From: Antedon mediterranea
Lineage: Eukaryota > Animalia > Echinodermata
Direction of reading: 5' to 3'
DNA length: 64,000 nt
NCBI RefSeq assembly: GCF_964355755.1
Contig: NC_092674.1
Location: forward strand, 16,306,001 to 16,370,000
Numbering within the stretch: position 1 is the first letter of the stretch; the number at the start of each line of letters is the position of its first letter. The notes under the pieces are model-generated. The model worked only from the letters and a program-made list of their open reading frames with translations, was not told where the DNA came from and made no database searches. The translations under genes and the position numbers were made by a program. Shown here piece by piece: positions 1 through 42,800 of this stretch.

Positions 1-456
1 AAATTATGGAATCATAATGTACACATTAGTCCATTATTACAATTGAACCTACAACCTACAATGCATGCATTGTATTGTATCAATATTTTATGGAAAAATA
101 TACAATATATAGGTAAATTTTAATAGTTTTTATTCTCATAAGACAAAATTATTACATAAATAAATATTATTTATTTAGTAACATTCATTATAATGATATT
201 TATATTGCAAATATTTAAAATCAAAGATAAATTTTGAATTATTATATATTACAGAAAAAATAAAGTTCATTCATGGTGGATGAACTATGAGACTAGTGAT
301 TTTTAAAGATATTTTTATAAGATCACAAATTGTGAAATTATGTAAACATTTTAATCCATTATCATTGTTTAACCAACAAAGTAAAATAATTTTATATTTA
401 ATTTCTATATTTAAACCAAATTGGTAAAAGTAAGCAAACATAAGCAATACACTTAC

Positions 457-528
457 AGTGTTTCCAATGCTGTCAAACCAGCAAATGCATTGGCTTGTAA
501 TGTACTTATTTGGTTATACCTCAAATTC
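457..528 (-). CDS. LRR exon 12: NLRYNQISTLQANAFAGLTALETL
   Basis: 72 bp, intact splice sites. Confidence 0.88.
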
Positions 529-12500: not shown

Positions 12501-14288
12501 CCTCTTAGTCAATAGTGTATTGTAATACCGCCTGTTAGTACTGAAGTTTGTATTAAGTGTGAAATTGTCCTTACATTGACAAATAACACTAGCATCCTCA
12601 TCGTGTCCACAATCGTGTACACTCATTCCATTACATTGTAAAATTACAATACAAGTTTAAAACATTTCTTTATTTACATGCATACTGTTATTAATCCTAG
12701 TTGAGTGTTAGTAGCAGCGGCAGTATATTATCAGGGCATCGGCAGCGGCAGTATATTATCAGGGCATCGGCAGCGGCAGTAGCAGTAGTAGTAGTAATAC
12801 ACGGTATTCTTGGAGTGAGGGGTAATAATATTCTGCCTTACAAATAAGTAAATAAATAGTTTGCGGAAAATGTTTACTAAAGCCAAAAAATGAAATTATT
12901 ATTAATTAATTGTATTAATTACTGCTATTATTTTTAAATTATAAAGTACGACAAATAGAAATCGTATGTGATAATAGGCATACAGAATGGAAGAGATGTC
13001 CGGCGATTAAAACCAGTCAAATCTTATAAAGTGTGACGTAACAATCGTATGTGATAATACGCATACAGAATAGAAGTGATGTCCGGCGATTCAAACCAGT
13101 CAAATCTTATAAAGTGTGACGTAACAATCGTATGTGATAAATAGGCATACATAATGGAAGAGATGTCCGGCGATTAAAACCAGTCAAATCTTATAAAGTG
13201 TGACGTAACAATCGTATGTGATAATACGCATACAGAATAGAAGTGATGTCCGGCGATTCAAACCAGTCAAATCTTATAAAGTGTGACGTAACAATCGTAT
13301 GTGATAATACGCATACAAAATGGAAGCGATGTCCGGTGATCAAAACCTGCCGAATGTTATAAAGTGTGATTGTTATAATAAAGTGTGACGCATACAGAAT
13401 TGAAGTGATGTCCGGCGATTAAAACCAGTCAAAACTAATAAAGTTTAGACAAAAATGTTATTAAAAACGATTATTTTTCCATATCGGGCCTCTCTTTATG
13501 GAAATCCAAAAAACACTTAAGCAAGATTTAATTTAGCATATAATGAGTTAGATGTTTGGGAAATATTCTGCAACAGTAACAATAATGATAAAATGTTATA
13601 TATTCTGGGAACTACAATAATACTTTAATGTGTTTTGACAAATTTAGGGAAAAGAAATGATCTTAAAACTGTACAGCTCGCAGAGAACATTGGTGCTGCA
13701 TTTTTCAGTTGTTGCTCCCCCAACATTGGCACCTTTTTCAAGCTTATTCGCGAATCGTTTCGGTTTGACGTTTGACGCGCGTGTAAAATGCTCAGTGGGA
13801 ACCGGTCTTAAGTGTGTGGATACATCGAAAGATGAACAAAATAGTGCAAAATATTAGTTCTTGAACAAATGGAAAAAACTCTCGCAATTTTACTATTTGT
13901 TCATTAAAAGGTAAACTATTGACAACATTAACTAAAGAATTTGATCACAGTACCGTATATAAAAAATCTAAAATGTATAGTTCGAAAAAATATTTTCATT
14001 TCATTTCAATAAAACATTATAGAACAATGTTGTAAAATAAGGATTAGCCACAAATTCTGAAAAGGTCATCAAATATTATAATGCCTTACAATATTATAAT
14101 ATCTATTAAAAATGATAAATATTAAGAGAAGTAATCATACCGGAATTTGAACCAACATCAGCACAACTAGAAAACGATAACTCCACCAATATTATTACCA
14201 CTTTAAAGACAAACATCTTTTTATGCAATTCAGTACCGTGATGTGCGTAGTAAACTTTATCTCCGAAAGTCATCTCAACGTTTGACAT
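457..14288 (-). CDS. Multi-exon extracellular LRR protein gene (signal peptide + LRRNT + at least 12 single-LRR exons); 3' end lies beyond the left edge of the window
   Basis: Exons 14288 (or 14216)-14141, 12136-11995, then 72-bp exons starting (plus coordinates) at 10203, 9334, 8335, 7678, 6684, 5945, 5036, 4382, 3139, 2481, 1653 and 457. All have AG/GT boundaries and compatible phases (1, then 2-2). Spliced product: MFVFKVVIILVELSFSSCADVGSNS-VGCPASCTCNVPTC...ITTL-(xLxxNQISTL[PQ]AN[AV]FAGLTALETL)n. Confidence 0.9.
1653..1724 (-). CDS. LRR exon 11: YLYGNQISTLQANVFAGLTALETL
   Basis: 72 bp, intact splice sites. Confidence 0.88.
2481..2552 (-). CDS. LRR exon 10: NLRYNQISTLPANAFAGLTALETL
   Basis: 72 bp, intact splice sites. 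Confidence 0.88.
3139..3210 (-). CDS. LRR exon 9: YLYGNQISTLQANAFAGLTALETL
   Basis: 72 bp, intact splice sites. Confidence 0.88.
4382..4453 (-). CDS. LRR exon 8: DLYSNQISTLQANVFAGLTALETL
   Basis: 72 bp, intact splice sites. Confidence 0.88.
5036..5107 (-). CDS. LRR exon 7: YLYGNQISTLQANAFAGLTALETL
   Basis: 72 bp, intact splice sites. Confidence 0.88.
5945..6016 (-). CDS. LRR exon 6: DLDNNKISTLPANAFVGLIALETL
   Basis: 72 bp, intact splice sites; most divergent copy. Confidence 0.88.
6684..6755 (-). CDS. LRR exon 5: NLRYNQISTLPANAFAGLTALETL
   Basis: 72 bp, intact splice sites. Confidence 0.88.
7678..7749 (-). CDS. LRR exon 4: DLYSNQISTLQANVFAGLTALETL
   Basis: 72 bp, intact splice sites. Confidence 0.88.
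8335..8406 (-). CDS. LRR exon 3: SLSRHQISTLPANAFAGLTALETL
   Basis: 72 bp, intact splice sites; conserved Asn replaced by His. Confidence 0.85.
9334..9405 (-). CDS. LRR exon 2: YLYSNQISTLPANVFAGLTALETL
   Basis: 72 bp, intact splice sites. Confidence 0.88.
10203..10274 (-). CDS. LRR exon 1: YLSYNQISTLPANAFAGLTALETL
   Basis: 72 bp, TTTTAAG acceptor and GTAAGT donor. Confidence 0.88.
11995..12136 (-). CDS. LRRNT (N-terminal cysteine cap) exon
   Basis: TATAG| ... |GTAAGT boundaries. 142 bp, phase 1-2. Encodes GCPASCTCNVPTCYSDDCYNNTRCNPWNANIHTELVKYNVYDPITTL. Confidence 0.88.
12961..13445. repeat. Minisatellite, ~84-bp unit, ~5.5 copies, in intron 1 of the LRR gene
   Basis: Repeated ATCGTATGTGATAATA.GCATACAGAAT.GAAG.GATGTCCGGCGATT.AAACCAGTCAAATCTTATAAAGTGTGACGTAACA. 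Confidence 0.92.
14141..14288 (-). CDS. First coding exon of the LRR gene (signal peptide; likely start at the second ATG, 14216)
   Basis: Hydrophobic MFVFKVVIILVELSFSSCA segment. Ends G|GTATG in phase 1, matching the LRRNT exon. Confidence 0.75.
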
Positions 14289-14490
14289 AATATTGTTTCT
14301 TTTAGTATTGTTGCAAAAGAGTTTTAAATAATTAATATAAATCAGTTCACCAGCTGTATTACTTTGCTTAGTGGTTGATATTAATATTTAATTGTTTTGT
14401 TGGAATAAGTAATTACATAGATTGAAGATAAACAGTAATGAATGTGAATTTACTATGTGTACTGTTATTATGAATATAATGTGACTATAT

Positions 14491-14703
14491 CAGGAGTATT
14501 AGTTAGACACTGGTAGTGTACTAACCCTTATTTACTTATGTATATAACAGGAGTATTAGTTAGACACTGGTAGTGTACTAACCCTTATTTACTTATGTAT
14601 ATAACAGGAGTATTAGTTAGACACTGGTAGTGTACTAACCCTTATTTACTTATGTATATAACAGGAGTATTAGTTAGACACTGGTAGTGTACTAACCCTT
14701 ATT
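14491..14703. repeat. Tandem repeat, 57-bp unit, ~3.7 copies, just upstream of the LRR gene start
   Basis: CAGGAGTATTAGTTAGACACTGGTAGTGTACTAACCCTTATTTACTTATGTATATAA repeated. Confidence 0.92.
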
Positions 14704-18898: not shown

Positions 18899-19390
18899 TG
18901 TGGCACATACTCGACTGCGGCGCTTACTGAACTGTGGCGCTTACTGGACTGCGTCGCTTACTGGACGGTGGGACTTTGTGGATTGTGGCGTTTACTGGAC
19001 TGCGGCGCTTACTGGACTGTGGTGCTTATTAGACTGTGGCGCTTACTGGACGGTGGCACTTTGTGGATTGTGGCGTTTACTGGACTGCGGCGCTTACTGG
19101 ACGGTGGCGCTTACTAGACTGTGGCGCTTACTGGACGGTGGCACTTTGTGGATTTTGGCGTTTACTTGACTGTGGCGCTTACTTGTGTGGTGCGTACTGG
19201 ACTGAGGCGCTTACTGGACTGTTGCGCTTACTAGACTGCGGCGCTTACTGGACTGCGGCGCTTACTGGACTGCGGCGCTTATTAGACTGCGGCGCTTACT
19301 GGACGGTGGCGCTTACTAGACTGTGGCGCTTACTGGACGGTGGCACTTTGTGGACTGCAGAGCTTACTGTGGCGCTTTGTGGATTGTGGA
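18899..19390. repeat. GC-rich minisatellite, 17-bp unit (GACTGCGGCGCTTACTG)
   Basis: Directly visible; explains the repetitive ORFs in three frames. Confidence 0.93.
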
Positions 19391-24914: not shown

Positions 24915-25241
24915 ATGTTACTTTATGAGATATGAGTTCAGTATGTTACCCTTTATGAGATAGGAGTTCAGTAGGCCTATGTTACCCTTTATGAGATAGG
25001 AGTTCAGTATGTCACCCATTATGAGATAGGAGTTCAGTATGTTACCCTTTATGAGATAGGAGTTCAGTATGTTACCTTTTATGAGATAGGAGTTCAGTAT
25101 GTTACCCTTTATGAGATAGGAGTTCAGTATGTTACCCTTTATGGGATAGGAGTTCAGTATGTTACCCTTTATGGGATAGGAGTTCAGTATGTTACCTTTT
25201 ATGAGATAGGAGTTCGGTATGTTACCCATATGAGATAGGAG
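24915..25241. repeat. Minisatellite, 30-bp unit, ~10.5 copies, abutting the virus-like island
   Basis: ATGAGATAGGAGTTCAGTATGTTACCCTTT repeated. Confidence 0.95.
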
Positions 25242-25321
25242 GTGATCTGTATGCTAGATCGATTAAAAGCCAATCTCGTTTGCGTGTCGTTGTCGTTCAT
25301 CGGCCAGGCGTTGACGGTAGA

Positions 25322-25762
25322 ATGCACAGCGCTCTATCAAATCTGCTCGCCAGCTGTGAAAACGTACGTCTCTTGACCGAATATCATTTGGCGGCCGTGC
25401 GCAATTCGGCCACGAACATTATTGTGACCGGTCCTAAAATTCAATCGAAATCTAACGGCATGAATGATGGCGAAGATGACAACAACAACAACAACACAGA
25501 AGACTTGGTTACCGGAGCAGCCGGAGCGAATCTGATCAAAGCCAGAACCATGGGCGTTCCAATGGCAACTTCTCTACTGGACGACGTTAACAAAACGAGC
25601 ACAGTAGACGAAAAAGAGAAACTTATCGGCGATCTAGTCAGATGCAGAAAGGAGAAGGAAAAGTTGAGAAAGAGTTTTCTTTTCGATAAAAGACGTGAAC
25701 GACACTTGTTACCGGTTATGACGACCGAGGATGTTGGTGACGAGAGAAGTATGTATGTATAA
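25322..25762 (+). CDS. Hypothetical protein (virus-like island)
   Basis: 146-aa ORF from ATG with a charged helical C-terminus; no recognisable domain. Confidence 0.55.
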   Translation: MHSALSNLLASCENVRLLTEYHLAAVRNSATNIIVTGPKIQSKSNGMNDGEDDNNNNNTEDLVTGAAGANLIKARTMGVPMATSLLDDVNKTSTVDEKEKLIGDLVRCRKEKEKLRKSFLFDKRRERHLLPVMTTEDVGDERSMYV

Positions 25763-25801
25763 AAACTCAATCGGGACTCGAACAGGCATCCGCCTCTCTC
25801 G

Positions 25802-26136
25802 ATGTTCTCGTCAGAAACGTTCTATTGGGATCAATACCGGTGTCAGGGGGAGGCGCCGGCAACGTTGCACGCCACGGAACAACGTCTGCGCTTCCAGCGA
25901 AAATGTTACAGCAGATTGTCAGCGATTGTTCGGCATCGTGGCAAGATTTCATCGTCACTGCTCGACGATTGGATGAAAGAATACGGCGTACCGCTGAAAC
26001 CGTGGACAAAGAGAGCGTTTGAGGACATTGAAATGATGATGCCTCTTCTGCCCTACTTTCGATCAGGCTGTGGACGGCGTATGCTCGCCGAAATGCTCGA
26101 CGTTTCTGAACATGATTTCACGTCAACTTTTCAGCT

Positions 26137-26173
<37 letters not shown>

Positions 26174-26182
26174 TCTTCTTGA
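25802..26182 (+). CDS. Hypothetical protein (virus-like island)
   Basis: 126-aa ORF; ends in an (ACT)n tract overlapping the convergent ORF. Confidence 0.55.
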
Positions 26183-27064
26183 TCGTCGAAAGAGAGAGAA
26201 TCTGTGTTGTTTCTTTGTGGAATTCAAAACGGATGCATGCAGCACTGTCGGTCGCACTGCACCATCGGGAAAGAGAAGCGGTGCGCACGCAACAATTGTA
26301 CCGTGCTCGAGTTTTATTTTTCTGTTGACAATCTGTATTCGAAATTCGTCGACAGCAGCAGAAGAAGCAGCAGCAGCAGCAACAGACTGTTGGAAAACAA
26401 AAGTGTCTACAATGCCGTTACAGCCGATGCGTTGAACAGTGTTTTCGTGTTTCACCTCGCCTATCCATTCACCGGGCGTAGGATGCAATGGTGCCGTTGT
26501 TTTCACGAACCTTCCCGACGGTACGTGTACAGTGATGACGGTGTTGCCGTGGAACGCTACAATCGTGTTTGCGTCAAAGAACGAATGCACACTGGTACGT
26601 TTCACATTCTTTTGCTTTTCGTTTTCGTCCATGGAAATTGGATGTCTGAGTAGGACGTTCCACGTTGTTCGGGTACGTCGCAACATCACCAGAAGATGAT
26701 CACCCGCTTGATCCACGTACCATGCGCATAGGTCGCGACCGTGTTGACACGTTGCGTGCGACGTGTACAATTCACCGCCGACGCCCGTATCCAACGACTG
26801 TTCCACGCTCCACGCACCACTATCCAAATCGAACGTTTCAAATTCTTTAGCTCCACCACCGCTTAGTATCAACAAATCTTCGTTCATTCTCGTCAGGCAT
26901 ACCGATTCGTCTGTACGCTTCGTTGTAGAGTTTTGCAATCTTACGAACGTTCCAACGATGGCATTGTATCGATGAAGACGCATCGTCGCGTTCTCCTCGT
27001 CTGCTGGAGATACTGTGTACGCCAGATTCCGAACTACGGTAGTTCGATAGAACGGTGCCGTCAT
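26123..27064 (-). CDS. Hypothetical protein with kelch/beta-propeller-like segment
   Basis: 313 aa. LLILSGGGAKEFETFDLDSGAWS...SHATCQHGRDL resembles a kelch blade (GG...fD...W). Confidence 0.6.
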
Positions 27065-27103
27065 GAACGAAGCGGTAACGTGTACGTATTCTTCCAGCTG
27101 CTG

Positions 27104-27975
27104 TTATGGTATTGATGGTGGTGGAGGTGGCGTTGTTGTTCCGAAAGTGGCAATTTGTCGATGACTGTGACGAACACCCAACGCCGATTGCTCGTTCAAT
27201 CGATGATGATGAAACACTTGTTTTACATAATGTCTCAAATCTTGAACCAGTTGATTGATGGAGGAGAGACGTACAAACGCGATTCTGTACAGCATTTCCG
27301 AATCGTTCAGTAATCTGCCTCGTATGAGTTTAACGAGAGCGTGTTGTTTTCTTCGATGTTCCGTTTTGCCGTTTTTGTTAATCCATGTGTGCACAAGATG
27401 CCAAAGATACGATTCTGGCATATAGTACACACTGTCGTGCGATTTTACTTCTGTCGGCTGATCGTGTCTGGCCGTATCCAGCCAGGTCATCAACTCTTCC
27501 CACTTGAGTTCCTGTTCGTGCAGTTTAATTTTGCCAAACGTTCTGCAAATGGCCAAGATGAAATTCTGTCGGCGGTTCTTCTGGCTTTCAGCAGATCGTG
27601 CATGCACATCTCGTACACGGCAGACGTAAACACGCAGATGGTGTCCTTGCAGCCAATCTTCTCGGCTATACTCAAGCAAGAGATTCGATCCTGATAGGAA
27701 AGAGTGGCGACAAAGTATGAGTTTCTATTCGTGTTCATGAACGTCAACAACGCGTCAACAAGTTGATCGTTTGCCATTCCAATAATGTTTACGCACCCTT
27801 TAGGCTTTTTACTCTCGTACGTGGGTATTATCCAAACCATAATCGTTTTGTCTTTCGATGTACATACTCGAATCTGTTCAGATCCTTTGTAGCCCAACGT
27901 TCTCGGTCGTTGACCGACGTATGCTAGATCTTCACGCGCTTTGTGATGATTGACAAGCAAACGTTTCTCTTCCAT
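27104..27975 (-). pseudogene. Probable single frameshifted gene (MEEKRLL... joined to ...QNFILAICRTFGK...)
   Basis: Two same-strand ORFs overlap at 27490-27679 and the downstream one lacks an ATG start. A frameshift near 27570-27590 would join them. Confidence 0.55.
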
Positions 27976-28037
27976 CTTGTTGTTAACGTCCCGGTTTTCT
28001 TTGTTTGTTTTCGTAAAACACACACACACAAATAATA

Positions 28038-29024
28038 ATGGTATCACGATTCCATCCTTACGCCGCCGGTGATGGTATTAGATGGTACACGGGCATACAG
28101 CCAAATTCACCGATCAAAGCGACAGAACGTCGTGGCGAGTACAGACTCGATGAGACAGACATGACGGCCGGTACGTCGCGTATACCAAATTTCGGCGATA
28201 GAAGAAACTTTATGTATCCAACGTCAACTCACGCACAAAAGGATACGGACGGTGTTCGTGACATAACAACGTATCACGAATTCTTCAACAGATCCATTCA
28301 ATTCAATCGAGGCGATATGCTGTTTCTTTACAACGGTCAAAGGAAAATGTCTACTGCAACACCGGCTCCTGTAAACTGTTACGCGTTACCCGAACCCAGT
28401 TTTAAAGCGAGTACGGACAAGGCAACGGTGCCGTTGCCTCACCTCCAAAACATCATCAAAGAAGAGGTTACACTCGACATCAACGACTGTTTCGATCGCG
28501 ACGTGCCGCACAACGAATACATCAAAACGGTGTGTCAACGACGTGGATTCGACAGCTTTGGAACCGTACTGGCACGCATGAAAACTCCTAGAGATTTCCT
28601 CTCTTACTTTCTGCCTATCGGCTATCAGCTTTCTTTCGGTGGCAATCAATGGTTTACGAACGAATCGTATCCGTGCATAACAACGCAACATTTCGGTAAG
28701 ATGATTACAACACTGTCTGGAGTTCACGAATCGTGTCGATTGAATGCAAAAGCGGGTACTAAACTGTACTTGGCCGTTGGCATGCTACCCGGAGTAACCG
28801 ACGCTCTTAACTATCCATATCCTTCGCTGTTTTTTAGCAACGATCATTATATTCCCAATCAACTAAAGTCTATGGGATTTGTTTGTCGATCGAGAAACGG
28901 TTGTGTGACGCCGTGTATGGTGAAAGCCATCGGAGAGTTTGCTACCGATTTCTACGGTAACGTTCGCAGTCCCGAGATTGAACTGTTTATGAACAGATAC
29001 TTTCGACCGTATCACTTTTCTTGA
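28038..29024 (+). CDS. Hypothetical protein, candidate capsid triplex-like (beta-tulip) protein
   Basis: Intact 328-aa ORF with ordered motifs FNRGDMLFLY ... LPHLQNII ... FLPIGY ... ITTQHFGKM ... AGTKLYLAV ... KAIGEF ... EIELFM. The ORF is secure; the function is inferred. Confidence 0.6.
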   Translation: MVSRFHPYAAGDGIRWYTGIQPNSPIKATERRGEYRLDETDMTAGTSRIPNFGDRRNFMYPTSTHAQKDTDGVRDITTYHEFFNRSIQFNRGDMLFLYNGQRKMSTATPAPVNCYALPEPSFKASTDKATVPLPHLQNIIKEEVTLDINDCFDRDVPHNEYIKTVCQRRGFDSFGTVLARMKTPRDFLSYFLPIGYQLSFGGNQWFTNESYPCITTQHFGKMITTLSGVHESCRLNAKAGTKLYLAVGMLPGVTDALNYPYPSLFFSNDHYIPNQLKSMGFVCRSRNGCVTPCMVKAIGEFATDFYGNVRSPEIELFMNRYFRPYHFS

Positions 29025-29099
29025 CGCGACACACACACACACACACACTATATAATAACGTGTCAGAGCAAAAAAAAAAATCATTCAGATTCGTTCGGT

Positions 29100-29741
29100 A
29101 TGGGAAAGTCAAAGGATATGATTGCGGAATTGAAACAGGAACTTGAAGCTATGCAAGTTGATAAGTTGAGTATGTTACAAGAACAAGATCGACTGAGAGG
29201 AAGAGTAATCGCTGCCGAAAAGTACGCCAACTCGTTACCGCAAAACATGTACAAAGACTTGACACATGCCGCCATGGACGCGCATAGGGATGTGGTAAAG
29301 GAGGAGACACAACGATACGAGATAGACAGCCTAAAGGCAAGACTCGCTGAAATGACTGTGAAGTATGAACAGTTGCGAAGGAAACTGCCCGAAACTTTGG
29401 AATTATGTTCCAAATACAAGGGGGCGACCGAGATGATCAAACTTTTACAAATTCAATGTGAAATCAACAAACAAGACTTTATGAAGGAGCAAGCGGATCG
29501 TCAAATGTTGGCCAGAAGAGCAAACTTACCGTACAAACAAACCGTTACAGAAGTCATACGAAAGCTGAATCTATTGATCGGACAGGATTATGTTGATGGT
29601 GATCTTGAAACAGACTGTGCCGACGTCAATCAAATAGAAGCAAATGTTTGTCATGCAATTGAACCGGTGCAGTTTCCTGAAGATCCATTACTAGACACGT
29701 GCGATCAACTGATGGCCGAATACGGAGCAACGGTGGTGTGA
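29100..29741 (+). CDS. Coiled-coil hypothetical protein
   Basis: 213 aa, heptad-rich. TATA-like TATAATAA ~50 bp upstream and AATAAA at ~29783. Confidence 0.7.
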   Translation: MGKSKDMIAELKQELEAMQVDKLSMLQEQDRLRGRVIAAEKYANSLPQNMYKDLTHAAMDAHRDVVKEETQRYEIDSLKARLAEMTVKYEQLRRKLPETLELCSKYKGATEMIKLLQIQCEINKQDFMKEQADRQMLARRANLPYKQTVTEVIRKLNLLIGQDYVDGDLETDCADVNQIEANVCHAIEPVQFPEDPLLDTCDQLMAEYGATVV

Positions 29742-30520
29742 AACAATTGTGTAAAATGTCATGTATAACATAAGAAAGTAAAAATAAATGCACCACAAAC
29801 CTTAATGTCTTCTTCTTATTTCATTACTGTGCGCGTGTGTTTGTAATATCGATGACAGCTAGTAGTAGGGCCTACTGTAAACGATACAAATAACAACGGC
29901 CAGAGAAGCAAAAACGTAAATTATCTGAGTGGACGTTGATGATGGTAACAAACTATGTAATACACATGACCGACAAAAACGTAAGTGGTATTAAAAAAAA
30001 ACCAGTAGTAACTACCGAATACTTAGTTGGTGCTCAAATACCGATGATGATGATGATAATAATTATAAAGAATTGGTTGAGGCACATACCAATTAAAAAA
30101 TACACAACAATTGGTCTGCGTTTTCTCTTCACCTTTATTTCGAACGGTTTGTTTGTTGGCCTTCACTACACTTAACTACAGTTAAAGCCGCTGATGAGCC
30201 CGCGACGACGTTGTTTCTTTCCAACGTAAGCAAACTCGTGAAACTGTGCTGCCGTGAGTTAACAAAATCTGCCCCATGTCGAATGGATTTTAATTTTCTG
30301 GTAGTTAGAACAACGATCGAATTGATCCAAGACGGATATCTGGATGGTTTTAGATGTTCAGTGTGTACAAATTCATTTCCTTCACAACAGAGAAAAAAAT
30401 AAAACGATTTCAACTAACGTGCTTTCTGCATCTCGAGTACATTTTATGCGGTAGATTGTCTGTGTATGAATACAATGAATGTATATCGAACTCATAGTAT
30501 TGCAAGTGCTCGTGTGTAAA

Positions 30521-30754
30521 TTAAGCGTTTATTTGCTCAATCTCTTTGGCAAGTTTTTGTGTATCCTGACACACGGTTCTATACGTTTTAAAATCACTCG
30601 GTGACGGTACTTCGTCTTGCATCATCACCGTATCCGCCATGAATCTCTCTAAACGTCTGCAAATCAACAATTGCTCTTCACACACTCGACGATAGCTGGG
30701 TATAATGTGCTGATCGAAATGAAGACGAACCTCGTCCAACGTAATATCGTTCAT
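30521..30754 (-). CDS. Small hypothetical protein
   Basis: 77-aa helical ORF from ATG; AATAAA overlaps its last codons. Confidence 0.55.
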   Translation of the reverse strand: MNDITLDEVRLHFDQHIIPSYRRVCEEQLLICRRLERFMADTVMMQDEVPSPSDFKTYRTVCQDTQKLAKEIEQINA

Positions 30755-31044
30755 TGATGTGTCTATTGTAGCTATGCTGGTTGTGATACTCTGAAGGATC
30801 TCTTTTTGATTTCTACCGCCCTACTTTTCGAATATGTGCTCACCGTGCAACACGGGATGATAGTTTTGTGAACTAGGATCATTGTTGCAAAATTGTCTCT
30901 GCTTACTGTCAACGTCATACGAGCACAGTCTACACCCTGCTGCCATCACGGATGTTGCATCATACATACACACACACACACACATATATATAGTATGTAT
31001 ATTTTATTTTTGTCAAGCAAAACACTATGAAGGACCTATCGATA

Positions 31045-31270
31045 GATTTTCTTTTTTGCTACGAAGATCCGCACGGTCTTCTAGAGTTCGAGGACGATTT
31101 TATTTTTTGCAACGAGGATGCGCACGGTCTTCTCGAGTTCGAGGACGATTTTCTTTTTTGCTACGAGGATCCGCACGGTCTTCTTGAGTTCGAAGACGAA
31201 TTTCTTTTTTGCTACGAGGATCCGCATTGTTTGGGGTACGAGGACGAATTTTCTATTTTGTTACGAGGAG
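31045..31270. repeat. 51-bp tandem repeat (~4.5 copies) inside the virus-like island
   Basis: GAGGACGATTTTCTTTTTTGCTACGAGGATCCGCACGGTCTTCTCGAGTTC repeated; open in one frame as (DDFLFCYEDPHGLLEFE)n. Confidence 0.85.
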
Positions 31271-31364
31271 GCTATTTGTAGTACTTAAAAAGAGGCAATG
31301 AGATGACATTAGTTAGTTGATTACGCATCGTCGTATAGAGATGCTGTTCGTTTGGGAGAGAAAT

Positions 31365-32311
31365 ATGGCAGAATTAACAGATCTCTTTCAATGCGAATAT
31401 TGTTTACGGACATGGGAAGGAAACGGTCAATGTCCTTGTTGCAACTATATAGTGACTGAAATGCAGTACGACGCTGGTGATGAAGAAAGTTTACATGCCG
31501 GGGAATGTCATGATGATGATGGTGAGATGACAAGAAGATTGTACAATATTGATTTTCCAATTGATAACGATAGTATAAAGGTGCTGTTCGTTGAGGAAGA
31601 GAAGAAAAATAGCTATATGGCAGAATTGACAGATCTCTTTCAATGCGAATATTGTTTACAGGCATGGGACGGAAACAGTCAATGTCCTTGTTGCAACTAT
31701 ATAGTGACTGAAATGCAATACGACGCTGGTGATGAAGAAATTTACATGCCGGGGAATGTCATGATGATGATGGTGAGATGACAAGAAGATTGTACAATAT
31801 TGATTTGCCAATTGATAACGATAGTATAAAGGTGCTGTTCGTTGAGGAAGAGAAGAAAAATAGCTATATGGCAGAATTGACAGATCACTTTCAATGCGAA
31901 CACTGTTTACAGACATGGGACGGAAACGGTCAATGTCCTTGTTGGTACACGCGCAACGATACAGTGACTGAAATACAATACGAAAACGATCCAGTGTTGC
32001 AGTACAATAATGAAGAATGTTTACATGCCGACAACGCCCGGGAATATCATGATGATGATGATGACATCGTTGATCATGAGATAACAAGAAAGTTGAACCA
32101 TATCGATTTGGATCCAATGTTATGCGAAGAAACGTATAGTAGTAATACATCGAATGACCAATCGATTACCGATTCGCCAATAATCTTTGTTGATTCACCA
32201 CAATCGTCAGCGACGGTGGTAAGCGACGAAGAAGACCATTTGATTACGTGTGACGCGTGCATGAACGTATGGGATGGATTCTCTCAGTGTCCGTGTCTAC
32301 CTACTACCTAG
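31365..32311 (+). pseudogene. Acidic protein with four CxxC-x3-W[DE]G-x2-QCPC putative zinc-binding motifs; triplicated 252/251-bp unit with one frameshift
   Basis: ATGGCAGAATT recurs at 31365, 31617 and 31868. A 1-bp deletion near 31741 (GAAAGTTTAC vs GAAATTTAC) splits ORFs 31317-31781 and 31778-32311. Confidence 0.7.
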
Positions 32312-32589
32312 CACGTTTAAACTTACTGTTGCCTTTACACAATAGAACTACGAACATGTTTGCCGTTACGACGACTGTGTTACTCAATAGTTGGTACGTA
32401 TATTGGAATCATCGATGTGCTGCTGTTTGTTTTTGTTTTTTTTATATAGTGATTGTGAAGAATTGATAACGGGTATAAACGCTAGAGATCTTGAAACTGT
32501 GTTTTCATGATCTATCTATTACACATGTTGTTTATGGGATTGTTTACTTTGATTCATGAATTGAAACAAATCTTTTACCATAATCTAAA

Positions 32590-32815
32590 TGTAGATGTAG
32601 ATGTAGATGTAGATGTAGTTGTAGTTGTAGATGTAGATGTAGATGTAGATGTAGTTGTAGTTGTAGATGTAGATGCAGATGCAGATGCAGATGCAGATGC
32701 AGATGCAGATGCAGATGCAGATGCAGTTGCAGTTGCAGTTGCAGTTGCAGTTGCAGTTGCAGTTGCAGTTGCAGTTGCAGTAGCAGTAGCAGTAGCAGTA
32801 GCAGTAGCAGTAGCA

Positions 32816-32892
<77 letters not shown>

Positions 32893-32937
32893 GGCAGCGG
32901 CAGCGGCAGCGGCAGCGGCAGCGGTACTGCTACTGCT

Positions 32938-32969
<32 letters not shown>
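32590..32969. repeat. Compound graded microsatellite
   Basis: (GTAGAT)n/(GTAGTT)n > (GCAGAT)n > (GCAGTT)n > (GCAGTA)n > (GCT)n > (GCGGCA)n > (GCA)n. Confidence 0.95.
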
Positions 32970-33074
32970 GACAAATAAAACCAAAAGCAAAGACGTGCGT
33001 TACATTGTGTTTTTTTTTTAATAATGACTCTTGGACGAACAAAATAAATTAAAAAAAAGCTACAATAAATCGTT

Positions 33075-33964
33075 TTATATAGACAATAATGAATTACACG
33101 ACCGCGTGAAGCACGAGGTGAGGCCTCTATCGATCGTTTCTCCATTCTTCTCAATGTGTATCATTATTGGAATACGTTCGATGGGTACTCGTCTGTCGAA
33201 AAACATGCAGCACGTCCACTTTAACCGTTCATCTTCACGTTCGTAAAGTAGGCCTACAAGTTGATCGTGTTGCTTCAATCGACAATCGTTCCAATTGAAT
33301 TTCCACGAAATAGGCTCCGATTGAATTGTGACGACGTTCCTTTTTGTCTTGACCGTTCGGTTATAGATTCCACATGATCGTCGAAACGACTGCACGATAC
33401 CCGTCTCTGCGTCGGTCTCAAGAACTAACGGTTTCAGTAACGCTTTAACAAACTCGTCGGCTCTACCACCTTTTCCCCAATCTCTCAACACTCTTCCCAC
33501 CAGCGTTACACACTCGTTCGTATGCGTGCGTTATACGTTGACTGTGCGACGTTGAACAAATGCATGTGGATAGCTGGTACGAAGGAGACAAAGAGACGAT
33601 CGAAACACTTTATCGACGCCAAGTTATGTTTGTGTGCATGACTTCTGAAATCGGTGAGTACACGAACGCGATCGTTCAGTCTGTTCCATAGACGATTCAT
33701 AACGACAGATTCCAGGAACGGATAGGGATCGTAGCCGACTCTTTCTATTTCTCTTGCTCTTCGAACTACTCCATCGCTCGTCTGGAACGTTGGAAATTTA
33801 ATCCAATTGAGTCGTGGTGGTGTTGGTAAAAGTACAGGCACCGTTTGAAATGTGACTAAAGACTCGTAAACGTACACCATATCGTTACGTTTGCAAGCGA
33901 CGATTCTGTGCTGGTAATATTCGCGTTCTATTGCATCCGCGTCCAGATAGTATTCTGACAGCAT
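33075..33964 (-). pseudogene. Probable single ~295-codon gene split by a frameshift
   Basis: ORF 33964-33506 is followed by ATG-less ORF 33500-33075, whose frame is already open (RTHTNECVTLVGRVLRDW) across the end of the first. Confidence 0.55.
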
Positions 33965-34145
33965 GTCGTTAGAAAAGTACTTGGAGTGGAGACGCTACTG
34001 GACGTTTGACAGTGACTTTTCTGACGCCTGCGATCGTGACGAGAATGTAATCGATAGAGTCGATGTTCGTGGTTATATGGCCATGCAGGATGAATTCGAC
34101 GTACTATGCAAAAGATCAACGTGCGAAGCTTGGCGAATTGCCTAG
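33963..34145 (+). CDS. Short or truncated hypothetical ORF at the right edge of the island
   Basis: 60 aa; its ATG overlaps the ATG of the divergent ORF (CATG at 33962-33965). Confidence 0.35.
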   Translation: MSLEKYLEWRRYWTFDSDFSDACDRDENVIDRVDVRGYMAMQDEFDVLCKRSTCEAWRIA

Positions 34146-36841
34146 CTGTCGATTAGCCTCGACTCGACCACACATTTTGTGTGAAGAAGAGTGCGCGAAG
34201 GCATCACGTGAATTGACTTAGAATCCTAGGCCTACTGTAGAAAGTATCGTATCGCAGTTGTGTAATCACTTCTTGTTGCTATACGCTTGGGTGCACACGG
34301 AACAACAAATTTAACTGATGAATTATTCATGTTTATTTTGTGACGTTTCATGAGGGGTCCCCAACTTATGTACGAAAAAAAAATCGCAGGCCGGCTAAGG
34401 ACTAAACAATTAATAAACAAAACAACTTGGCAACACGATTTCATATTTCAACAGCCTCGATCGTACATTCAGCACTGTACGTAGGCCTACTCGATCTTTT
34501 TCATTTTGAAACAAAATGATCATTGGTTGATTCGAAATCCATATTTACATACCGCCCGCCCCATATAGCCAAATACGGTATGATAACCTACGTCATTCTT
34601 ATCGGATGTTTGCGGTCTGCAAATCGATTTCTATACGTGTATTTTCAGGCAAAAATCGCGGTCGAAATAAAAACAAATAAATAAAATAAAATAAAACAAT
34701 TCAGACTTGGGGCAAGTCTACTATGACCATAACTGCCTTACAATTTCTGAGATATGAAAAGTGTGCTCTAAACCAAAAATGTTTGTGCCGGCTATATGTC
34801 AAAGGTCAAAATTAAGGGTTTATTGACAGTTTTATGATTTTTATTACATTAGAACAAATATAAACATATACTTTGCGAGTAATTTGAGACCACAATTACC
34901 ACTCTCTGATCAGTGGTTAATGAGATATTCATATGGCCAATTTCTTGACCAGTCGTCAGAAAAGGGGGTTCTGTCCACTTTTGACAAAAGTTTCCCATTA
35001 GAGTGAATAGAAATATGGTTCTTCTGAGTAGTTTGGCACAACAAATATTCCAATACACCTAGTAGTTACCAAGTTACGCACAGTACTAACTTTGACCATA
35101 TTGACCTTTTGGCCGCTGTACTGACCAAGCGCCCCATTTTTTTCGGCCAACAGCAAAAAATTGATCTGTATTGATATAAGGAAGCAAAAAACCATTGTTA
35201 ACATAGTTTGCTAGAGCCTTAGAGGGTGCACGTAAACCCTTTCTGGCTCCCCAACTATTGGTTCAAAGTGGGTGCAAAGACATGTCCCCTAAAATTGTAC
35301 TTAGGCCTATACTTTGAATTATACAAAATTTGTGAGTTGTAAGGTAAAGACAATTTTGAAAAATAGAGCTGCTAGGTCCCCAGAAATTACACTTAGGCCT
35401 ATACTTTAAAAAGGTCTGGCTATATTATTAGGAAGGAAAATATGCCTCATTTTAGATACACCGAAACCAAAGGTACTACTGTAGTAAACATTGCTATCAG
35501 ACTACGGTTACAGAGTATTTGCGTGCTTTTGCTGATAGCTTCCGGGAATTTCCCTTTTAAAATTCCATCGAAAGCTGGACACTTGGAATACTGAATCTAT
35601 GCTTTCACTGTACCGTTGTCATACAGTAGCTAGAAAGTATTGATTTATTAATAATACTCAAACATACAATTAGCATTGATCTACAATCAACCCATTTCTT
35701 ATTTGCCTTTCCCACGCACTCTATTTCTTTTTTCTTCAGCCTGGTACGAATTTGCTATTCCACCTGCCTCCTCGACTGTTATTACGCAACATGGTGGGAG
35801 CCTCTGCAAAACTCAAGACGATAATAAATATTAATTTAAGGGTAGTTAGTCGCTTTTAAAGTTGAAAATCCTTGATTTGGCACACTTAGTTAGTATAGGG
35901 TATTGTTTTATTTTTGTTAGGAAATAGATCATATTTCTCCCCGCGCAGGGGTTTCCCCTGACCTGATAGCGCGTTTAGTGCGACACCGCGGAGTAATTAC
36001 GGCGGGGTTCCTCTAATTGGGAGCATTGCCGAGGTGCGAAATCTACACGGCGGAGCTTCCCCTTTTATACCTACACGTTCCCTGTTATTTTGTGTTTAAA
36101 TAGAATATCATTGCGTAATTTAACACACTTGTAAACTATTTTAATGTTTTGCGATGTGTGGCGACTTTGCTATGGGGCGACTTGACTAATCCCTCCTAAA
36201 TACGACGCAAAACAAATAAACATACTAGTTGACGTTTTTTAAAAGTAAATTGTCCTCTGAAAATAGGCTTGAAAACGCTATGTTATTTCTGTTAGTTACG
36301 AAGCGTTGCACGGCGTCATCAATCGATGTCTTCTGTTTCGTGAAATAAGCCTATACACGCACTAAATTATTTGTTCGTATCAGTCGTTTAATTTTCTGAT
36401 AATATAAACTGTGGACACGTACAAGTTTCCGCAGTGTGGCCTACTGCATCCTTGATGCTGATTGATTATTTTTTACACCAATCGCCTCAAAAGTATAATG
36501 AAAATGCAAAACACACACAATATATCCTATTTTGTATAATTTACACTTTATACTGGGTAATGGGGCTTGGTTATAATTGATAGGGACTTGGTTGGGCTTA
36601 GTATTTAAGAGGACTCAACTGAAGGCACACTTGGCGTTTCATAACCGTTAGCATGGCGACACGATACGTCACACAGTACACACGCCACACCACTTTTGTG
36701 AACAACATAAACAAAGTCGTAAACAACTCTTGCTTGGAGTTTGCTAGGCCTAAATTATTTTCTGTTGATTCGACGATTGGATTTACTTATTCATCTTAAC
36801 TAATATATTTTATATAGGCCTAACGCCCAAATAATGTTGAA

Positions 36842-39800
36842 ATGCCTTCCTATGTGAGTTTAAAAACTGCAAATATCGGAGTTTTGTTACCTACATTCAT
36901 CATGCAGCCTCTAGCCTTGGTGTGGTGGTAGGGCCAGGCTAGACCCTAGCTAGGCCTGGTGTGGTGGTAGGGCCAGGCTAGACCCTAGGCCTCTAGATAG
37001 GCCTCTAGGCTCTAGCCTATATATAGGCTAGGCCTAGAGGGCCTAGGCTAGGCCTTGTCTAGTAGGCCCCCTCCTAGCCTAGCTAGCTAGTACGGTTGGG
37101 CTAGCCTAGCCTAGTAGCTTGCGGGCAGGACCTCGTGTACGGTGTAGGTTACTATTAGTATTAGAGTAGCCTAGGCCCTAGCCTACTAGGCTAGGCCTAG
37201 GTCTAAACTAAGTAAAGTAGCCTAGTACAGTTGTAGTAGGCCTAGCTAGGCTAGCTAGGATGGATCAGGTAGGATTGGATGGTACTGTAGGCTTCGATAG
37301 CTACCCTGCTTGGTGGGACACCCTCGTCCGGCGCTCGGCAGTTTCGCACCTAAAACTAAACTGGGCATAATAAGACTTCTCGGTCATTCACCATTACTGC
37401 CGCGCAGCGGGTGAATGTTTTTAAATTGGATAAGCTAGAGAGATTGTGATGCGACAGTGCAGTAGCACCCTCCTTCCTACCTAGTAGGGTTAATTAATCT
37501 CTAGGCCTATACTTTAAAAAGTAAACTGCTAGGCCTACTAGCTAGCCTAGGCCTAGCTAGAGAGGCCTACACCTACTATAGGCCTAGGTGGTGGAGTACA
37601 GTAGCTAGCCTCCAAACAGGTCGGTCAGTTTTTTCCATACAATAGTTCCTCCATCCTTTCACTTTGGACTCAATCGACTCTTCGGATAGGAAGTCTGCTT
37701 ACAAACTAGGCCTACTTTGTGTCTGATAGGCAGCACAACGACACCGACGAGGCTAGCCGCGATTGACCAATTATATTTCAGAGATCATGCAGGTTATTGG
37801 ATCCCCAGATGTAGAGACAATTGAACGAAAACATTATGAAAGGGGTTTTGTTTTTTTTTCAGTTTATAATTACTGTTCCCTTGATTGAATTTATGATTGA
37901 ATTTATTTGATGCTCAACATTAATATAACGAACAGACAAAAGACAAAATAACGAGCATCAGGAACACCCATTAGGCCGGAAAAACCAGCCCATTTCCAAT
38001 GGGGTCCAAATTGCACATAACAAACAATAGAAAATACAACATTATAAAACTATAAATATATAAATATACATAAAAATAAAGCCCAGTAAAACAGAAAAAT
38101 TAAAAGAGAAAGCAAACAAGTAATGAGAAAAATTGCACGTTATCAAGACCATTATAGTTATCAAAATTATTCTAAATATAAAATATATTTATATTATATA
38201 TAAGGTCATTATATAAAAAAGGTCCACTTTTTCAGGCCTCTATGCCTGATATTTTCAAAGTATAAGTGTAATTTTTGAAGACCTGTAGCTCTTGTTTTCA
38301 AAATTTTCTTAGCTCAGTCCCAACCATAGAGCTGGTCATGGATACTTATAAATTTTGTTTCATATTTCAAAGTAAAATAAGTGCATTTTCCGAGGACCTA
38401 ACAGCTCTATTTTTCGAAAAATTGTCTTAGCTCAGTCCCAACCATGGTAGCTGGTCCTGAAGATACTGTAGTTTGTTTTATATTTCAAAGAAGGCCTATA
38501 ATCTAATTTCCGGTGACCTTATAGAAGCAACTCTATTTTTCTAAATTTTCTTAGCTCCATCCCCAAGCATGGTGGGCTGGAATTTTGTTTCATATACCAA
38601 TGTATAATTGCAATTTCTGGGGACCTAGCAGCTCTATTTTTCAAAATTGTCTTGCAGGTCAGCTCAAGGGTGTTAGTCCTGCGCATTTACAATTCACATC
38701 CCCATACAGCAACCAGCCTACACGTGCCTCTGCGATTAACGATATCTTGGCCTGTGGCCATGTTTTATGTTCGCATATTTTTTCTATGCTACAATTTACC
38801 AGATAATTAATATAGGTATATTGAAAAAGGTCACTTCATTATTAAAATTGAAATAATTGATTTACACACAGTCATCACATTGGACCTTGTGTGCAATGTG
38901 TTTTGCACACAGTATTTTATTTAAGTACCATAACAAAATGGAAATAGTTGACTACCCTAAATCTGATTAAAACGGCCTCAAACTGTGCTACAATGCACCC
39001 CAACCCTTAAAAGGGCAATTTCCGGTAACTTAGCAGCTCTAATTTAAAAAAAATTTTCTACTACAGAATTTTTGTTCCATATTTCAAATTAAGTTTCATT
39101 TCCGGGCATCGTAACAGCTTTATTTTTTCAATTTTTCTTACCTCAGCCCCAGTGACGATGGTGGGCCGAGGTCCTAGGTCCTAGGTCTTGTACATTTTTA
39201 TTTCAAATTAAGTGCCATTCGAGCAGCTCTATTTTCTCCATGAAAATGTTATCAACAGTTTTTTGTATTGTTGTGGTTTTTTTATTCGAAATGAAATAAT
39301 CTCAAAATTGTAAATTTTTGTTTGGAAAAAGCTTGAACTCATTTTTTTTTATAATTTTTATACTGTACAGATTTGTAGGAAGAGTAACCAACTTCTCAGA
39401 AGACCCATAGCACCATCACAAACATCAACAGTAGAACAAGTTGAAAAAGATTTAAATGAAAAGAATGTTATAGTGCATGAAACAAAGTCATTTGTCAGCT
39501 CATGCCAGAATTTATCTCCAGTGCCAAGTGTTGCACCAACTCTAGCGTCAGATATTGAAACAGGGGATTTTGCAGAGTTTCAGACACCAGCAAACACACC
39601 ACGCACACGAGCAAAGAGTAGGAAATCACAAAAAAATGCTTGTGCACCCCTTTTCACTGGAAAACATGATTTTAGATTTAAGATAGAGCCTAGGTATCAA
39701 TTGAGCCACAATTACTTACCTAAGGTTGAGTCACCCTCAATAGTATATCCTTATAAACCAAGAGGACCAGATGCATTTCCATTTAGAGAGCCTATGCGAC

Positions 39801-42800
39801 CTCCAGAAGTTAAAAAGGAACTTTTATATACAGACACTTTTGATATGGAGAATTTAAAGTTTCCTGAATTTACATTAAATGACTTTCAGTTTGATATCAA
39901 TTCTATTTATGAAATGCCAAAAGTTACTATGACAAAAGCTGTGCTATCAAAACAGAACTATAAGAAATTAACAACATTGTTCGCAACATTAGTTAAAACA
40001 CCAAGACAAGAGAAAGTAAACACAATTCAGCTAAAAGGTAGGATTAATATGTCCTAATAATTTAATTAAAGGCAAATGACTAATCAATGTACTGTTATAA
40101 TTTTTATTATTATAATGTTTTTTTTACATTATTTATGCATGTTAACCTATTTGTTTTGTTCAAACTTGTTTTCTTACATGTAAAACTTAACTTGCTTATG
40201 TAGTGACATGCCAACTTGTTACTTTATATATCATTTATGCTTGTGTAAGTGTGGAAATAAATATTACTTACTAAACTATTACTTATTACTAAAATATTTC
40301 ATTGTTTATAGGTGAAAATATTCCTAATGTTCAGCCCAGAATTCCTCAGTGTCAGTTGTTGGCTGAAATTGCATTAACAATTCGTCAACAAATGCGAGAG
40401 TTGATGAATGAAGGTATACATAATGATATTACTCAAGTCTATATAACATCAAACAGTCAGTTGACTCCATTGGACAAAGGCAAACCAATGCGGAAAAAAG
40501 TGTAAGTTTTTTACTTTTATTGCTTGTTATTTAACCATTTGTACTAAAATACTGTAAAGCATGCATTTTAACCTATTTTTCAACTACTGAAATTCAACTA
40601 CAAAATTATTTTGAATGGTGGCTAGGCATGCAAGAGAGAATTTTTTTTATGGATGATGATAATAATACAATACTCTTTCTTTGTTTTACAGACATGACAT
40701 GCCATATGTGAATGAAGCAATAGTTACAGTTCCAGTTGCTAAATATTTTCAAGGGGCCAAGCGTAGTTATTCTCCTTTCAGTAAGTTCATGCACATAATG
40801 CCAGCCGTTGGTACATTTGTTCTTAAGGAAAGCCTAGGCACAATCAGTCTTTCTTATTTATCTCACACTGTTCAGTTAAATGTTCATAGCCTATTTGTGT
40901 TTCATAACATTATTTTCTTCTTCTTTAATCTCCCCTTTTTTCTACTCTAATTGGATGACCCAATAACGGTGTAACAGGTGGAACATTTGTAGAGTGAAAT
41001 GTGACTCTGTAATTCCAAAAATCCATGATAATCTTTTTACTATAAGAACTCACAATACTGTCTGTCTGTTATATCCGGGTGACATAGGTTTAATGTTGTC
41101 TACTCTTGTTCCTGCTTGGCGTAATAAGATAATCAATATTTAATTTCGGTCTAAAATATGGCATCAACTGTCTTTGACACTGTGTCAACCTCAATTGTTT
41201 TTATGGTATATATTTTTATTATAACGCACCTGATTGTAGTCTTGCAATTTCATTGGTTATTGATGTTTCATTTGAAATTAGCCCTACCTAACAAAAAAGT
41301 GATAACAATTGTGATAATTAATGCACTCAAATTCACGTTCAGCTTTTCTTTAAACATATTGGGCATTTTTGCCATGCGACGTTGTTGACTAATCGCGTTC
41401 CGAAATCAACGTGTTGTCGCAGCCTCTATACTCCACATTATTGTTTGTTTGTTTAAAATAATATCTAAATAGATTCTTGTCATTTGAATTGAATAATAGG
41501 TACATTTGATTCACATTAAAACAGTAACATTTAATTGGCTTTTTGTAAATATATGTTTTTTTATATTAAATATTTTATTTATTTGTATATTTTTATAAAC
41601 ACACCTACTGTAGTTTCAATTATGTCAACAACTGACCAAACAATCTTAGGCCTAACCTAATACTAATACAGTAGCAAACTGATCTTTAATTCTGTTTTTT
41701 TCCTAATGATTCCACTTCTTGTAGTAATGTACCCATTAATTAATCACAATACTACAAACGATCTAAAACTAATTTAAATGCTTATTTTGGTCTAATTTAA
41801 TACATACATGCCAACATCTGAAGTTAAAAAAACGGGAAGTGGTGTTTTTTGTCAACAGCACCCTCTGTCTATTATTCGAGATGTAAGGAGTGCAGTGTGT
41901 GACATCATAAGCAGTATCACATGGTGGCTATGTGAGGGGAATCCCTTTTCTGTTCATAAAAAAATTATGACTGCAGATGGTCGTGCAATGGCTTAAGAAT
42001 CATAAATTTGCTTGTGAAGCCTTTTTGTTGTATTTTAATGCAGAAAACAACACATTATACATCAAAATTCAGTTACCTTTGTAATCAGGGAGAAAATGTT
42101 AATCGGCATGTATGATATCTCTAAAAAAAATGATATATCTCTAAAAAAATGATATAGGCGGCACTGTTTGATTTATAAATAAATTAAATGGTCCTAAAAA
42201 AATATTTTCCGTTTGCAAAAAAAAGATTTTTTTTTCGACTTTACTATTTAATGATTGTGAAATAGTGCATACTACTTCATGCCATGTGACCCACAATCAT
42301 CTAATTAAATGACAGGAATTTATTTAGGTGTTGTAAATATAACAAAACAAATATTGAATGTTTTGTATTCGTTGAATGGAGAGAATATTTCATTTGATGA
42401 AAAATTGATGGCTCTGTTTCATTAAATGAAATAGAACAGTCAAATCATGAAATATTCTCACTAAGTATCCACCTCTAAATCAGTCATTATTTGTATATTA
42501 TTTTACAGCTATAGTAATTTTAATTATGGTTTTAATGAGCTGAATGGAAAATTCAGTGAACTATTTTTTTTACAGATGATTCTGACCAGTCTTCAACAAT
42601 AACCCCAGCAGAGCTGGCTATTCTAGATTGCCTAGTGAATGGTGGTCTTGCATTGAGCTTAAAAGTATGTGTTCTTATGTCAGGTGACTATTGCCTCACA
42701 TTAATATCTGAGCTCTCAACATCTTACTCTTTGTGTTACTTCATATAAATGTCAAACAATGAATCATGTGAATAAAATAGAATTCAAAAATATAATTTGA

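What the first reader, a model, noticed from the sequence alone, without database searches (positions are those of the whole stretch)
28038..29024. Candidate capsid triplex (beta-tulip) gene, the best handle on the virus's identity
Seen: two spaced 'G-x-x-L-[FY]-L' strands (RGDMLFLY, AGTKLYLAV), each followed later by a hydrophobic-Gly strand (FLPIGY, KAIGEF). An ITTQHFGKM strand lies between them and the ORF ends in EIELFM. Established: herpesvirus triplex proteins contain duplicated beta-tulip domains related to phage cement proteins such as lambda gpD, and mirusviruses also encode triplex proteins. Inference from remembered motif layout only: this ORF is a triplex subunit, which would place the element among eukaryotic Duplodnaviria.
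Basis: inference. Interest (0 to 1): 0.8.

Follow-up and report, generated by a model that had tools for sequence, protein, structure and literature searches.

The report
Herpes-type capsid gene in animal DNA
This intact gene is predicted to fold like the herpesvirus capsid protein "triplex 1" and sits in a 9-kb island of tightly packed foreign genes inside animal DNA, likely a decaying piece of a distant, unnamed herpes-like virus of an invertebrate.

Summary
ORF 28038-29024 (328 aa) has no Pfam, PHROG or PDB sequence hit, but 10 unnamed relatives turned up. An AlphaFold2 model built on them (pLDDT 70, pTM 0.73) matches herpesvirus triplex chains: Foldseek E 2e-6; VIA Z 11-12.7. Phage cement proteins score Z 8.7 or less and the chains read as Tri2 score 4.8, so it is Tri1-like. 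One detail is wrong: the cited paper describes one beta-tulip per subunit, and I found no internal duplication. The gene lies in an 8.9-kb island (25240-34142) that is GC- and CpG-rich and gene-dense, within AT-rich animal DNA. Neighbours include a NEMO/ABIN UBAN-like ORF and a broken gene. Near-identical DNA occurs in 4 studies, where contigs run past both edges, so the window holds a fragment of a longer element. A relative sits beside a Bcl-2-like gene. Best reading: Tri1 of a deep-branching invertebrate herpes-type virus. Mirusvirus origin could not be tested, and no listed contig bridges either junction. Endogenous invertebrate herpesviruses are already reported (lancelet, annelid, starfish, ribbon worm), so this is a new member of a known kind.

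The parts
28038..29024 (+). Intact 328-aa ORF, predicted capsid triplex subunit 1 (Tri1/VP19C-like). Low-confidence N-terminus (1-61); a beta domain with a helical insertion (about 68-219, helices 133-190; read as the beta-tulip); C-terminal beta domain (about 220-327).
   Evidence: domain boundary inferred from aligned ranges
25240..34142 (.). Gene-dense foreign island, read as a fragment of a large eukaryotic DNA virus genome
   Evidence: GC 0.44 and CpG o/e 1.33, against 0.28/0.67 (left) and 0.35/0.77 (right); ORF cover 0.69 against 0.01 and 0.11, including low-complexity frames; contigs of other runs stop matching at 25240 and 34140-34142 and run on with other DNA
29100..29741 (+). 213-aa coiled-coil ORF with a NEMO/ABIN UBAN-like segment; candidate captured immune modulator, directly downstream of Tri1
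   Evidence: Pfam CC2-LZ E 1.2e-6, 29.3 bits, below the 35.3 cut-off; top 5 of 9 PDB rows are ABIN2/NEMO, each only E 0.1-0.5; whole-protein PDB search empty at E<=0.1
26123..27975 (-). Divergent neighbour in three pieces, broken by a frame change near 27550 and a stop near 27105; possibly one BTB/BACK/kelch-like gene (weak lead)
   Evidence: frames; BACK E 0.08-0.1; last piece nearly all beta but pLDDT 35, no fold match; contigs of X1, X5 and X6 differ from the window at both places
25322..26182 (+). Two unassigned ORFs (146 and 126 aa) at the left edge
   Evidence: no Pfam hit
31027..32311 (+). Repeat-built acidic and Cys-rich ORFs: a 51-bp unit x4.5, then a 251-bp unit x2.3 that changes frame; CxxC..CxxC motifs
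   Evidence: weak zinc-finger Pfam rows, best E 4e-4, below cut-off
33075..33964 (-). Two unassigned ORFs (152 and 141 aa) near the right edge
24921..25241 (.). 30-bp tandem array (10.5 copies) abutting the left edge
34143..34330 (.). Start of high-copy repeat DNA abutting the right edge
   Evidence: summed contig depth jumps from about 900 to over 100,000 in X1

Best explanation
The ORF is predicted to encode capsid triplex subunit 1 of a large herpes-type DNA virus, and it sits intact in an 8.9-kb island that is likely a decaying, integrated fragment of that virus's genome in an invertebrate chromosome. In the virus, by analogy with herpesviruses (inferred), one copy would join two Tri2 copies through the beta-tulip domain. 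The trimer would sit at the three-fold positions of an HK97-fold procapsid, with the flexible N-terminus reaching the capsid floor to lock major capsid proteins together. Shown: the ORF, its relatives, the fold match to Tri1, the island and its presence in 4 studies. Inferred: capsid role, partners, herpes rather than mirusvirus ancestry, invertebrate host, and integration at this site. In this window the gene probably builds nothing, since no major capsid, Tri2, portal or terminase gene was recognised in the fragment.
For: Fold: pLDDT 69.7, pTM 0.73. Foldseek PDB best E 2.4e-6. VIA Z 11.2-12.7, rmsd 3.6-5.8 A over 188-214 residues, for 9 herpes chains; then Pam3 cement 8.7; best non-viral row 3.9. 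Chains read as HCMV Tri2 score Z 4.8; subunit identity of PDB chains is read from residue ranges and recalled lengths, backed by BFVD names. Family: 6 other clusters at E<=0.001 among 1.84 billion representatives, plus cluster members, 10 relatives in all, 20-58% identical; three starred subgroups plus one long-branch row. Animal-virus hints: Bcl-2-like ORF next to relative P0004 in L001 (Pfam E 2.7e-5, below cut-off) and the UBAN-like neighbour here. Host: exons with GT-AG borders and an LRR exon at 39-51 kb, Pao and RT relics. Decay: broken neighbour gene, microsatellites, repeats at both edges. Precedent: herpes-related regions in starfish and ribbon-worm genomes branching between Ortho- and Malacoherpesviridae (10.1101/2025.04.19.649669, section 10).
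Against: TM-scores are modest (0.30-0.44 to solved chains; 0.53 to the best, unnamed BFVD model) and identity is 8-18%. The model rests on 10 sequences and no control fold was run. No Pfam hit for P0001 or for 4 of 4 relatives scanned. No second hallmark gene was confirmed: the polymerase-like look of the L001 neighbour is recalled, and Pfam, PDB and the Atlas did not support it. No row in either fold library was named as a mirusvirus. No listed contig of the 5 runs laid bridges island and flank at either edge; they continue into other DNA. The host taxon was not identified.
Confidence: 0.7

Rival explanations
1. It is Tri1 of a mirusvirus, or of a third eukaryotic duplodnavirus lineage outside Herpesvirales.
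For: Mirusviruses carry both triplex genes (PMC10132985, passages). There is no sequence link to named herpesviruses. Relatives come from unnamed contigs of Logan, ENA, JGI and NCBI. The published eukaryote-wide mirusvirus screen excluded Metazoa (PMC10827195).
Against: The host is an animal and neighbours look like animal immune and apoptosis genes. Mirusviruses are described from unicellular hosts. No relative was found in IMG/VR in 5 of 5 completed scans, which are insensitive pattern scans.
Confidence: 0.13
2. The gene is Tri1, but the island is DNA of a free, latent or elsewhere-integrated virus that the assembly joined between two repeats.
For: Both edges abut repeats. In X6 a contig runs 1,242 letters past the left edge and in X5 630 letters past the right edge with DNA unlike the window. 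No listed contig bridges a junction.
Against: The window copy has a frame change and a stop where three other runs differ, which fits decay in a chromosome. Short-read contigs break at repeats, so missing bridges are expected.
Confidence: 0.12
3. It is a Tri2 subunit, or a phage-type cement protein that acts as a homotrimer.
For: Phage decoration proteins align across both domains at Z 5-8.7. No Tri2 gene was recognised in the island.
Against: Tri1 chains score Z about 12, chains read as Tri2 4.8, lambda gpD 3.3-3.5. No named Tri2 is among the 50 BFVD rows. No PHROG hit and no relative in prokaryote genomes in 2 of 2 scans. The island is only a fragment.
Confidence: 0.04

Closest known systems
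Orthoherpesvirus triplex subunit 1 (HSV VP19C, VZV, EBV BORF1, KSHV, HCMV, HHV-6B chains)
   Same: Predicted fold across residues 69-326 (Z 11-12.7); helical insertion in the first beta domain; similar length to the shorter chains
   Different: 8-18% identity; no Pfam match; host apparently an invertebrate
Malacoherpesvirus triplex 1 (OsHV-1 ORF112; abalone herpesvirus K4JYJ4) and malacoherpes-like insertions in lancelets and Capitella
   Same: Weak Foldseek matches (E 2e-2 and 2e-3); invertebrate host; Tri1 followed by a same-strand ORF, as in the OsHV-1 bicistronic VP19/ORF113 unit (PMC11565193)
   Different: 462-473 aa against 328; scores lower than orthoherpes Tri1; no sequence similarity detected
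Herpesvirales-related regions in starfish and ribbon-worm genomes (bioRxiv 10.1101/2025.04.19.649669)
   Same: Deep-branching herpes-type DNA embedded in marine invertebrate chromosomes
   Different: Those were placed by DNA polymerase, which is absent here; their sequences and supplements could not be seen, so identity with this family is untested
Mirusvirus triplex 1
   Same: Same protein class in eukaryotic Duplodnaviria
   Different: Described from protists; no direct comparison was possible
Phage decoration/cement proteins (lambda gpD, Pam3, TW1, E217)
   Same: Two-domain beta-tulip core, Z 3-8.7
   Different: About half the size, homotrimeric, lower scores

Membership tests
Herpes-type triplex subunit 1 | Triplex fold over the whole core | tested here: met
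   E down to 1e-6, Z 11-12.7 over about 190-214 residues
Herpes-type triplex subunit 1 | Closer to Tri1 than to Tri2 (short helical insertion, no long embracing arm) | tested here: met
   Z about 12 against 4.8 for chains read as HCMV Tri2 (identity from range 6-306 and recalled length); named Tri1 rows in BFVD; helices 133-190
Herpes-type triplex subunit 1 | N-terminal arm that contacts the capsid floor | tested here: inconclusive
   residues 1-61 have pLDDT under 50: compatible, not shown
Herpes-type triplex subunit 1 | 1:2 heterotrimer with Tri2 on an HK97-fold capsid | not testable with these tools
   no Tri2 or major capsid gene of this virus is in hand
Named herpesvirus triplex sequence families (Pfam/PDB) | Profile match at sequence level | tested here: not met
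   0 Pfam families at E<=1 for P0001 and 4 relatives; family profile finds 0 of 177,635 PDB sequences at E<=10
Herpesvirales | Linked major capsid protein, terminase, portal, protease and herpes-type polymerase | tested here: inconclusive
   none recognised among island ORFs; the island is a fragment and L001 is 2.5 kb
Malacoherpesviridae | Tri1 closest to OsHV-1/abalone virus Tri1 | tested here: inconclusive
   ranks 12 and 16 in BFVD, behind orthoherpes rows; predicted models only, no tree possible
Mirusviricota | Match to mirusvirus Triplex1 profile and mirusvirus hallmark genes | not testable with these tools
   no mirusvirus profile or named model available; supplement search gave only cluster ids
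   HHalign of halves, probability 0.1%, on a shallow profile; Stone et al. describe one tulip per subunit; single phage cement chains align across both domains
Endogenous viral element | Joined to host DNA in reads | tested here: inconclusive
   joined in the window; no bridging contig listed in 5 runs laid

The most novel reading that the evidence does not exclude
The protein marks an undescribed, family-level lineage of animal-infecting duplodnaviruses outside the three herpesvirus families and the mirusviruses. It has at least four divergent branches, enters invertebrate chromosomes, persists as near-identical longer copies under several organism labels, and carries a captured NEMO/ABIN-type linear-ubiquitin decoy next to its capsid gene.
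Probability: 0.35. Interest if true: 0.72.

Novelty: new member of a known kind. Interest (0 to 1): 0.52.

Why it matters
Invertebrate herpes-type viruses are known from very few hosts, and this triplex family is invisible to Pfam, PHROGs and PDB sequence searches. The 11 proteins give a new marker for finding such viruses and point to contigs of 12-60 kb that should place the lineage. A virus-borne UBAN-like gene would be an unusual route to blocking NF-kB signalling; one literature search (listing only) showed no clear precedent but was narrow.

Tried and rejected
Sequence searches that gave nothing useful: Pfam, PHROGs, PDB phmmer (17, one chance row at E 2.1), PDB with family profile, ESM Atlas (12, best 0.84). 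Word-indexed homolog searches found only P0002 and P0009. Five IMG/VR scans and two prokaryote-genome scans found no relative (16, 26, 44, 45, 86; 65, 87). No whole genome is held. Homotrimer prediction gave no verdict. No RNA holder listed; X8 is only guessed to be RNA. Contig depth over the island was about 3-6 times that of some flank contigs in X1, X5 and X6, but depth is no copy number, so copy number is left open. The L001 divergent ORF looked polymerase-like from recalled motifs; Pfam, PDB and the Atlas did not confirm it. The single-sequence fold of 26123-27064 was unusable. Reading the broken neighbour through with X at its stop gave no Pfam hit. I considered that neighbour as Tri2 and dropped it for lack of any support. 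The two unnamed top BFVD accessions are in no paper of the library. Rosani et al. 2023 is not held. An echinoderm-focused search listed nothing relevant. Earlier-findings look-ups were empty.

Full report
Observation. The ORF is real: ATG at 28038, stop at 29024, 328 aa. None of 200 shuffles of the island gave an ORF this long. All quoted motifs are present; EIELFM is 10 residues short of the end. The doubled G-x-x-L-[FY]-L pattern was defined after the fact and is not kept exactly by relatives.

Relatives. Pfam, PHROGs, PDB sequences and the ESM Atlas gave nothing usable. HMMER over 1.84 billion representatives returned 7 proteins at E<=0.001; cluster look-ups added 3. All 10 are unnamed, 20-58% identical, on contigs of 0.7-60 kb. 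Alignment A3 used the query and 9 of the 10; P0008 was left out because its C-terminus does not align. A tree of 9 rows (P0007 and P0010 left out) shows three starred groups and one long branch.

Fold. AlphaFold2 on A3 gave pLDDT 69.7 and pTM 0.73, with residues 1-61 unresolved. Foldseek against the PDB counted 48 matches at E<=0.001; all 35 shown are herpesvirus capsid entries, best E 2.4e-6, TM 0.30-0.44. BFVD gave 11 at E<=0.001: 2 unnamed (the best, TM 0.53) and 9 herpesvirus proteins, 5 named triplex 1, TRI1 or BORF1. Abalone herpesvirus (2e-3), OsHV-1 ORF112 (2e-2) and eel herpesvirus Tri1 (6e-2) follow. OsHV-1 ORF112 is identified as triplex 1 in PMC11565193 (passages). VIA-align over 48,161 chains gave 10 at Z>=8: 9 herpes chains (Z 11.2-12.7) and the Pam3 cement protein (8.7); other phage decoration proteins score 3-7 and the best non-viral row 3.9. 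In the second look, chains read as HCMV Tri2 score 4.8. PDB rows carry no subunit names; I read them from residue ranges and recalled lengths. No control fold was run; the tool's note gives Z 7-8 as typical for models without a clear match.

One tulip, not two. Stone et al. (10.1101/216911, passages) describe one discontinuous beta-tulip in each of Tri1 and Tri2, with a helical insertion that is much larger in Tri2. The model has helices 133-190 inside the first beta domain and a second beta domain from about 220. The halves do not align by HHalign (shallow profile), and single phage cement chains align across both domains.

Surroundings. The gene lies in 25240-34142: GC 0.44, CpG o/e 1.33 and ORF cover 0.69, against 0.28/0.67/0.01 to the left and 0.35/0.77/0.11 to the right. 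The flanks hold a spliced gene with an LRR exon and Pao and RT relics, so the host is an animal, probably an invertebrate (inferred; taxon not identified). Downstream of Tri1 is a UBAN-like ORF (below cut-off, and empty). Upstream is a divergent gene broken at two places. Relative P0004 in L001 is followed by a Bcl-2-like ORF. No major capsid, Tri2, portal, terminase or polymerase gene was recognised in the island.

Other samples. Nine runs of 4 studies and 3 organism labels hold the island or part of it; 5 were laid. Over the ORF, X1 differs at 2 of 1,002 letters and X9 at 5 of 717, without gaps; X6 differs at 78 places over about 4 kb. Contigs stop matching at 25240 and 34140-34142 and go on with other DNA, by 1,242 letters on the left (X6) and 630 on the right (X5). 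So longer versions exist and the window holds a fragment. No listed contig bridges island and flank, so integration here rests on the window's assembly and on signs of decay.

Mechanism. By analogy with herpesviruses (inferred), the protein would trimerise with two Tri2 subunits through its tulip, occupy three-fold sites of an HK97-fold procapsid and anchor its N-terminus in the floor (10.1101/216911; PMC10132985, passages). In the window it is most likely a passenger of a decaying insertion.

Known context. Malacoherpes-like insertions are reported in lancelets and Capitella (PMC5552708, passages; PMC12373286, passages). [quoted passage not shown] Mirusviruses also carry triplexes and are described from protists (PMC10827195, PMC12768974, passages); that screen excluded animals. 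Of 19 supplement files of PMC10132985, 11 were searched and gave only cluster ids. Literature searches showed no description of this family, which is weak since it has no name. An earlier AI note (e1-7277521) reports a Tri1-like protein read as mirusvirus-type in another genome; I did not check it.

Verdict. Triplex, Tri1-like: about 0.93. Animal herpes-type virus rather than mirusvirus: about 0.8. Truly integrated at this site: about 0.85. Overall 0.7. New member of a known kind; interest 0.52.

Noticed in passing
window 29100-29741 (+): UBAN-like stretch (about residues 110-150) aligns to ABIN2 and NEMO, keeping the D-F-x-x-E-x-x-x-R pattern; possible viral decoy for linear ubiquitin (function recalled, untested).
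   Followed up: partly
window 29049-29055 and 29783-29788: A TATA-like box between Tri1 and the UBAN-like ORF, and the island's first + strand AATAAA just after the latter; the two genes may share a poly(A) site.
   Followed up: no
window 26123-27975 (-): Three-piece broken gene with a weak BACK hit and a beta-rich tail; would resemble viral kelch-like Cullin-3 adaptors (recalled).
   Followed up: partly
L001 1944-2468 (+) and 3-905 (-): Bcl-2-like ORF overlapping the end of the triplex relative, and a divergent ORF with polymerase-B-like N-terminal motifs (recalled, unconfirmed).
   Followed up: partly
window 32589-32962: Compound microsatellite that drifts through several 6-bp and 3-bp units, inside the island.
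   Followed up: no
window 29834-30365 and 31325-31573: Runs of organism B skip these stretches, so copies differ in structure.
   Followed up: no
window 36500-37700: GC-rich, AGGCCT-rich stretch upstream of the host gene; I recall such stretches from echinoderm genomes, untested.
   Followed up: no
window 39370-51060 (+): Host gene with GT-AG exon borders and an LRR exon (Pfam E 2e-4, below cut-off).
   Followed up: partly
window 52850-59800 (-); 45092-46589 and 51783-52665 (-): Decayed Pao/BEL retrotransposon (Peptidase_A17, DUF1759, DUF5641) and reverse-transcriptase relics.
   Followed up: partly
window 12960-13444, 14486-14703, 18899-19369: Minisatellite arrays of 83, 57 and 17 bp.
   Followed up: no
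window 1-11000: Very AT-rich (GC 0.20-0.25) and CpG-depleted (o/e 0.00-0.36), as expected of methylated host DNA.
   Followed up: no
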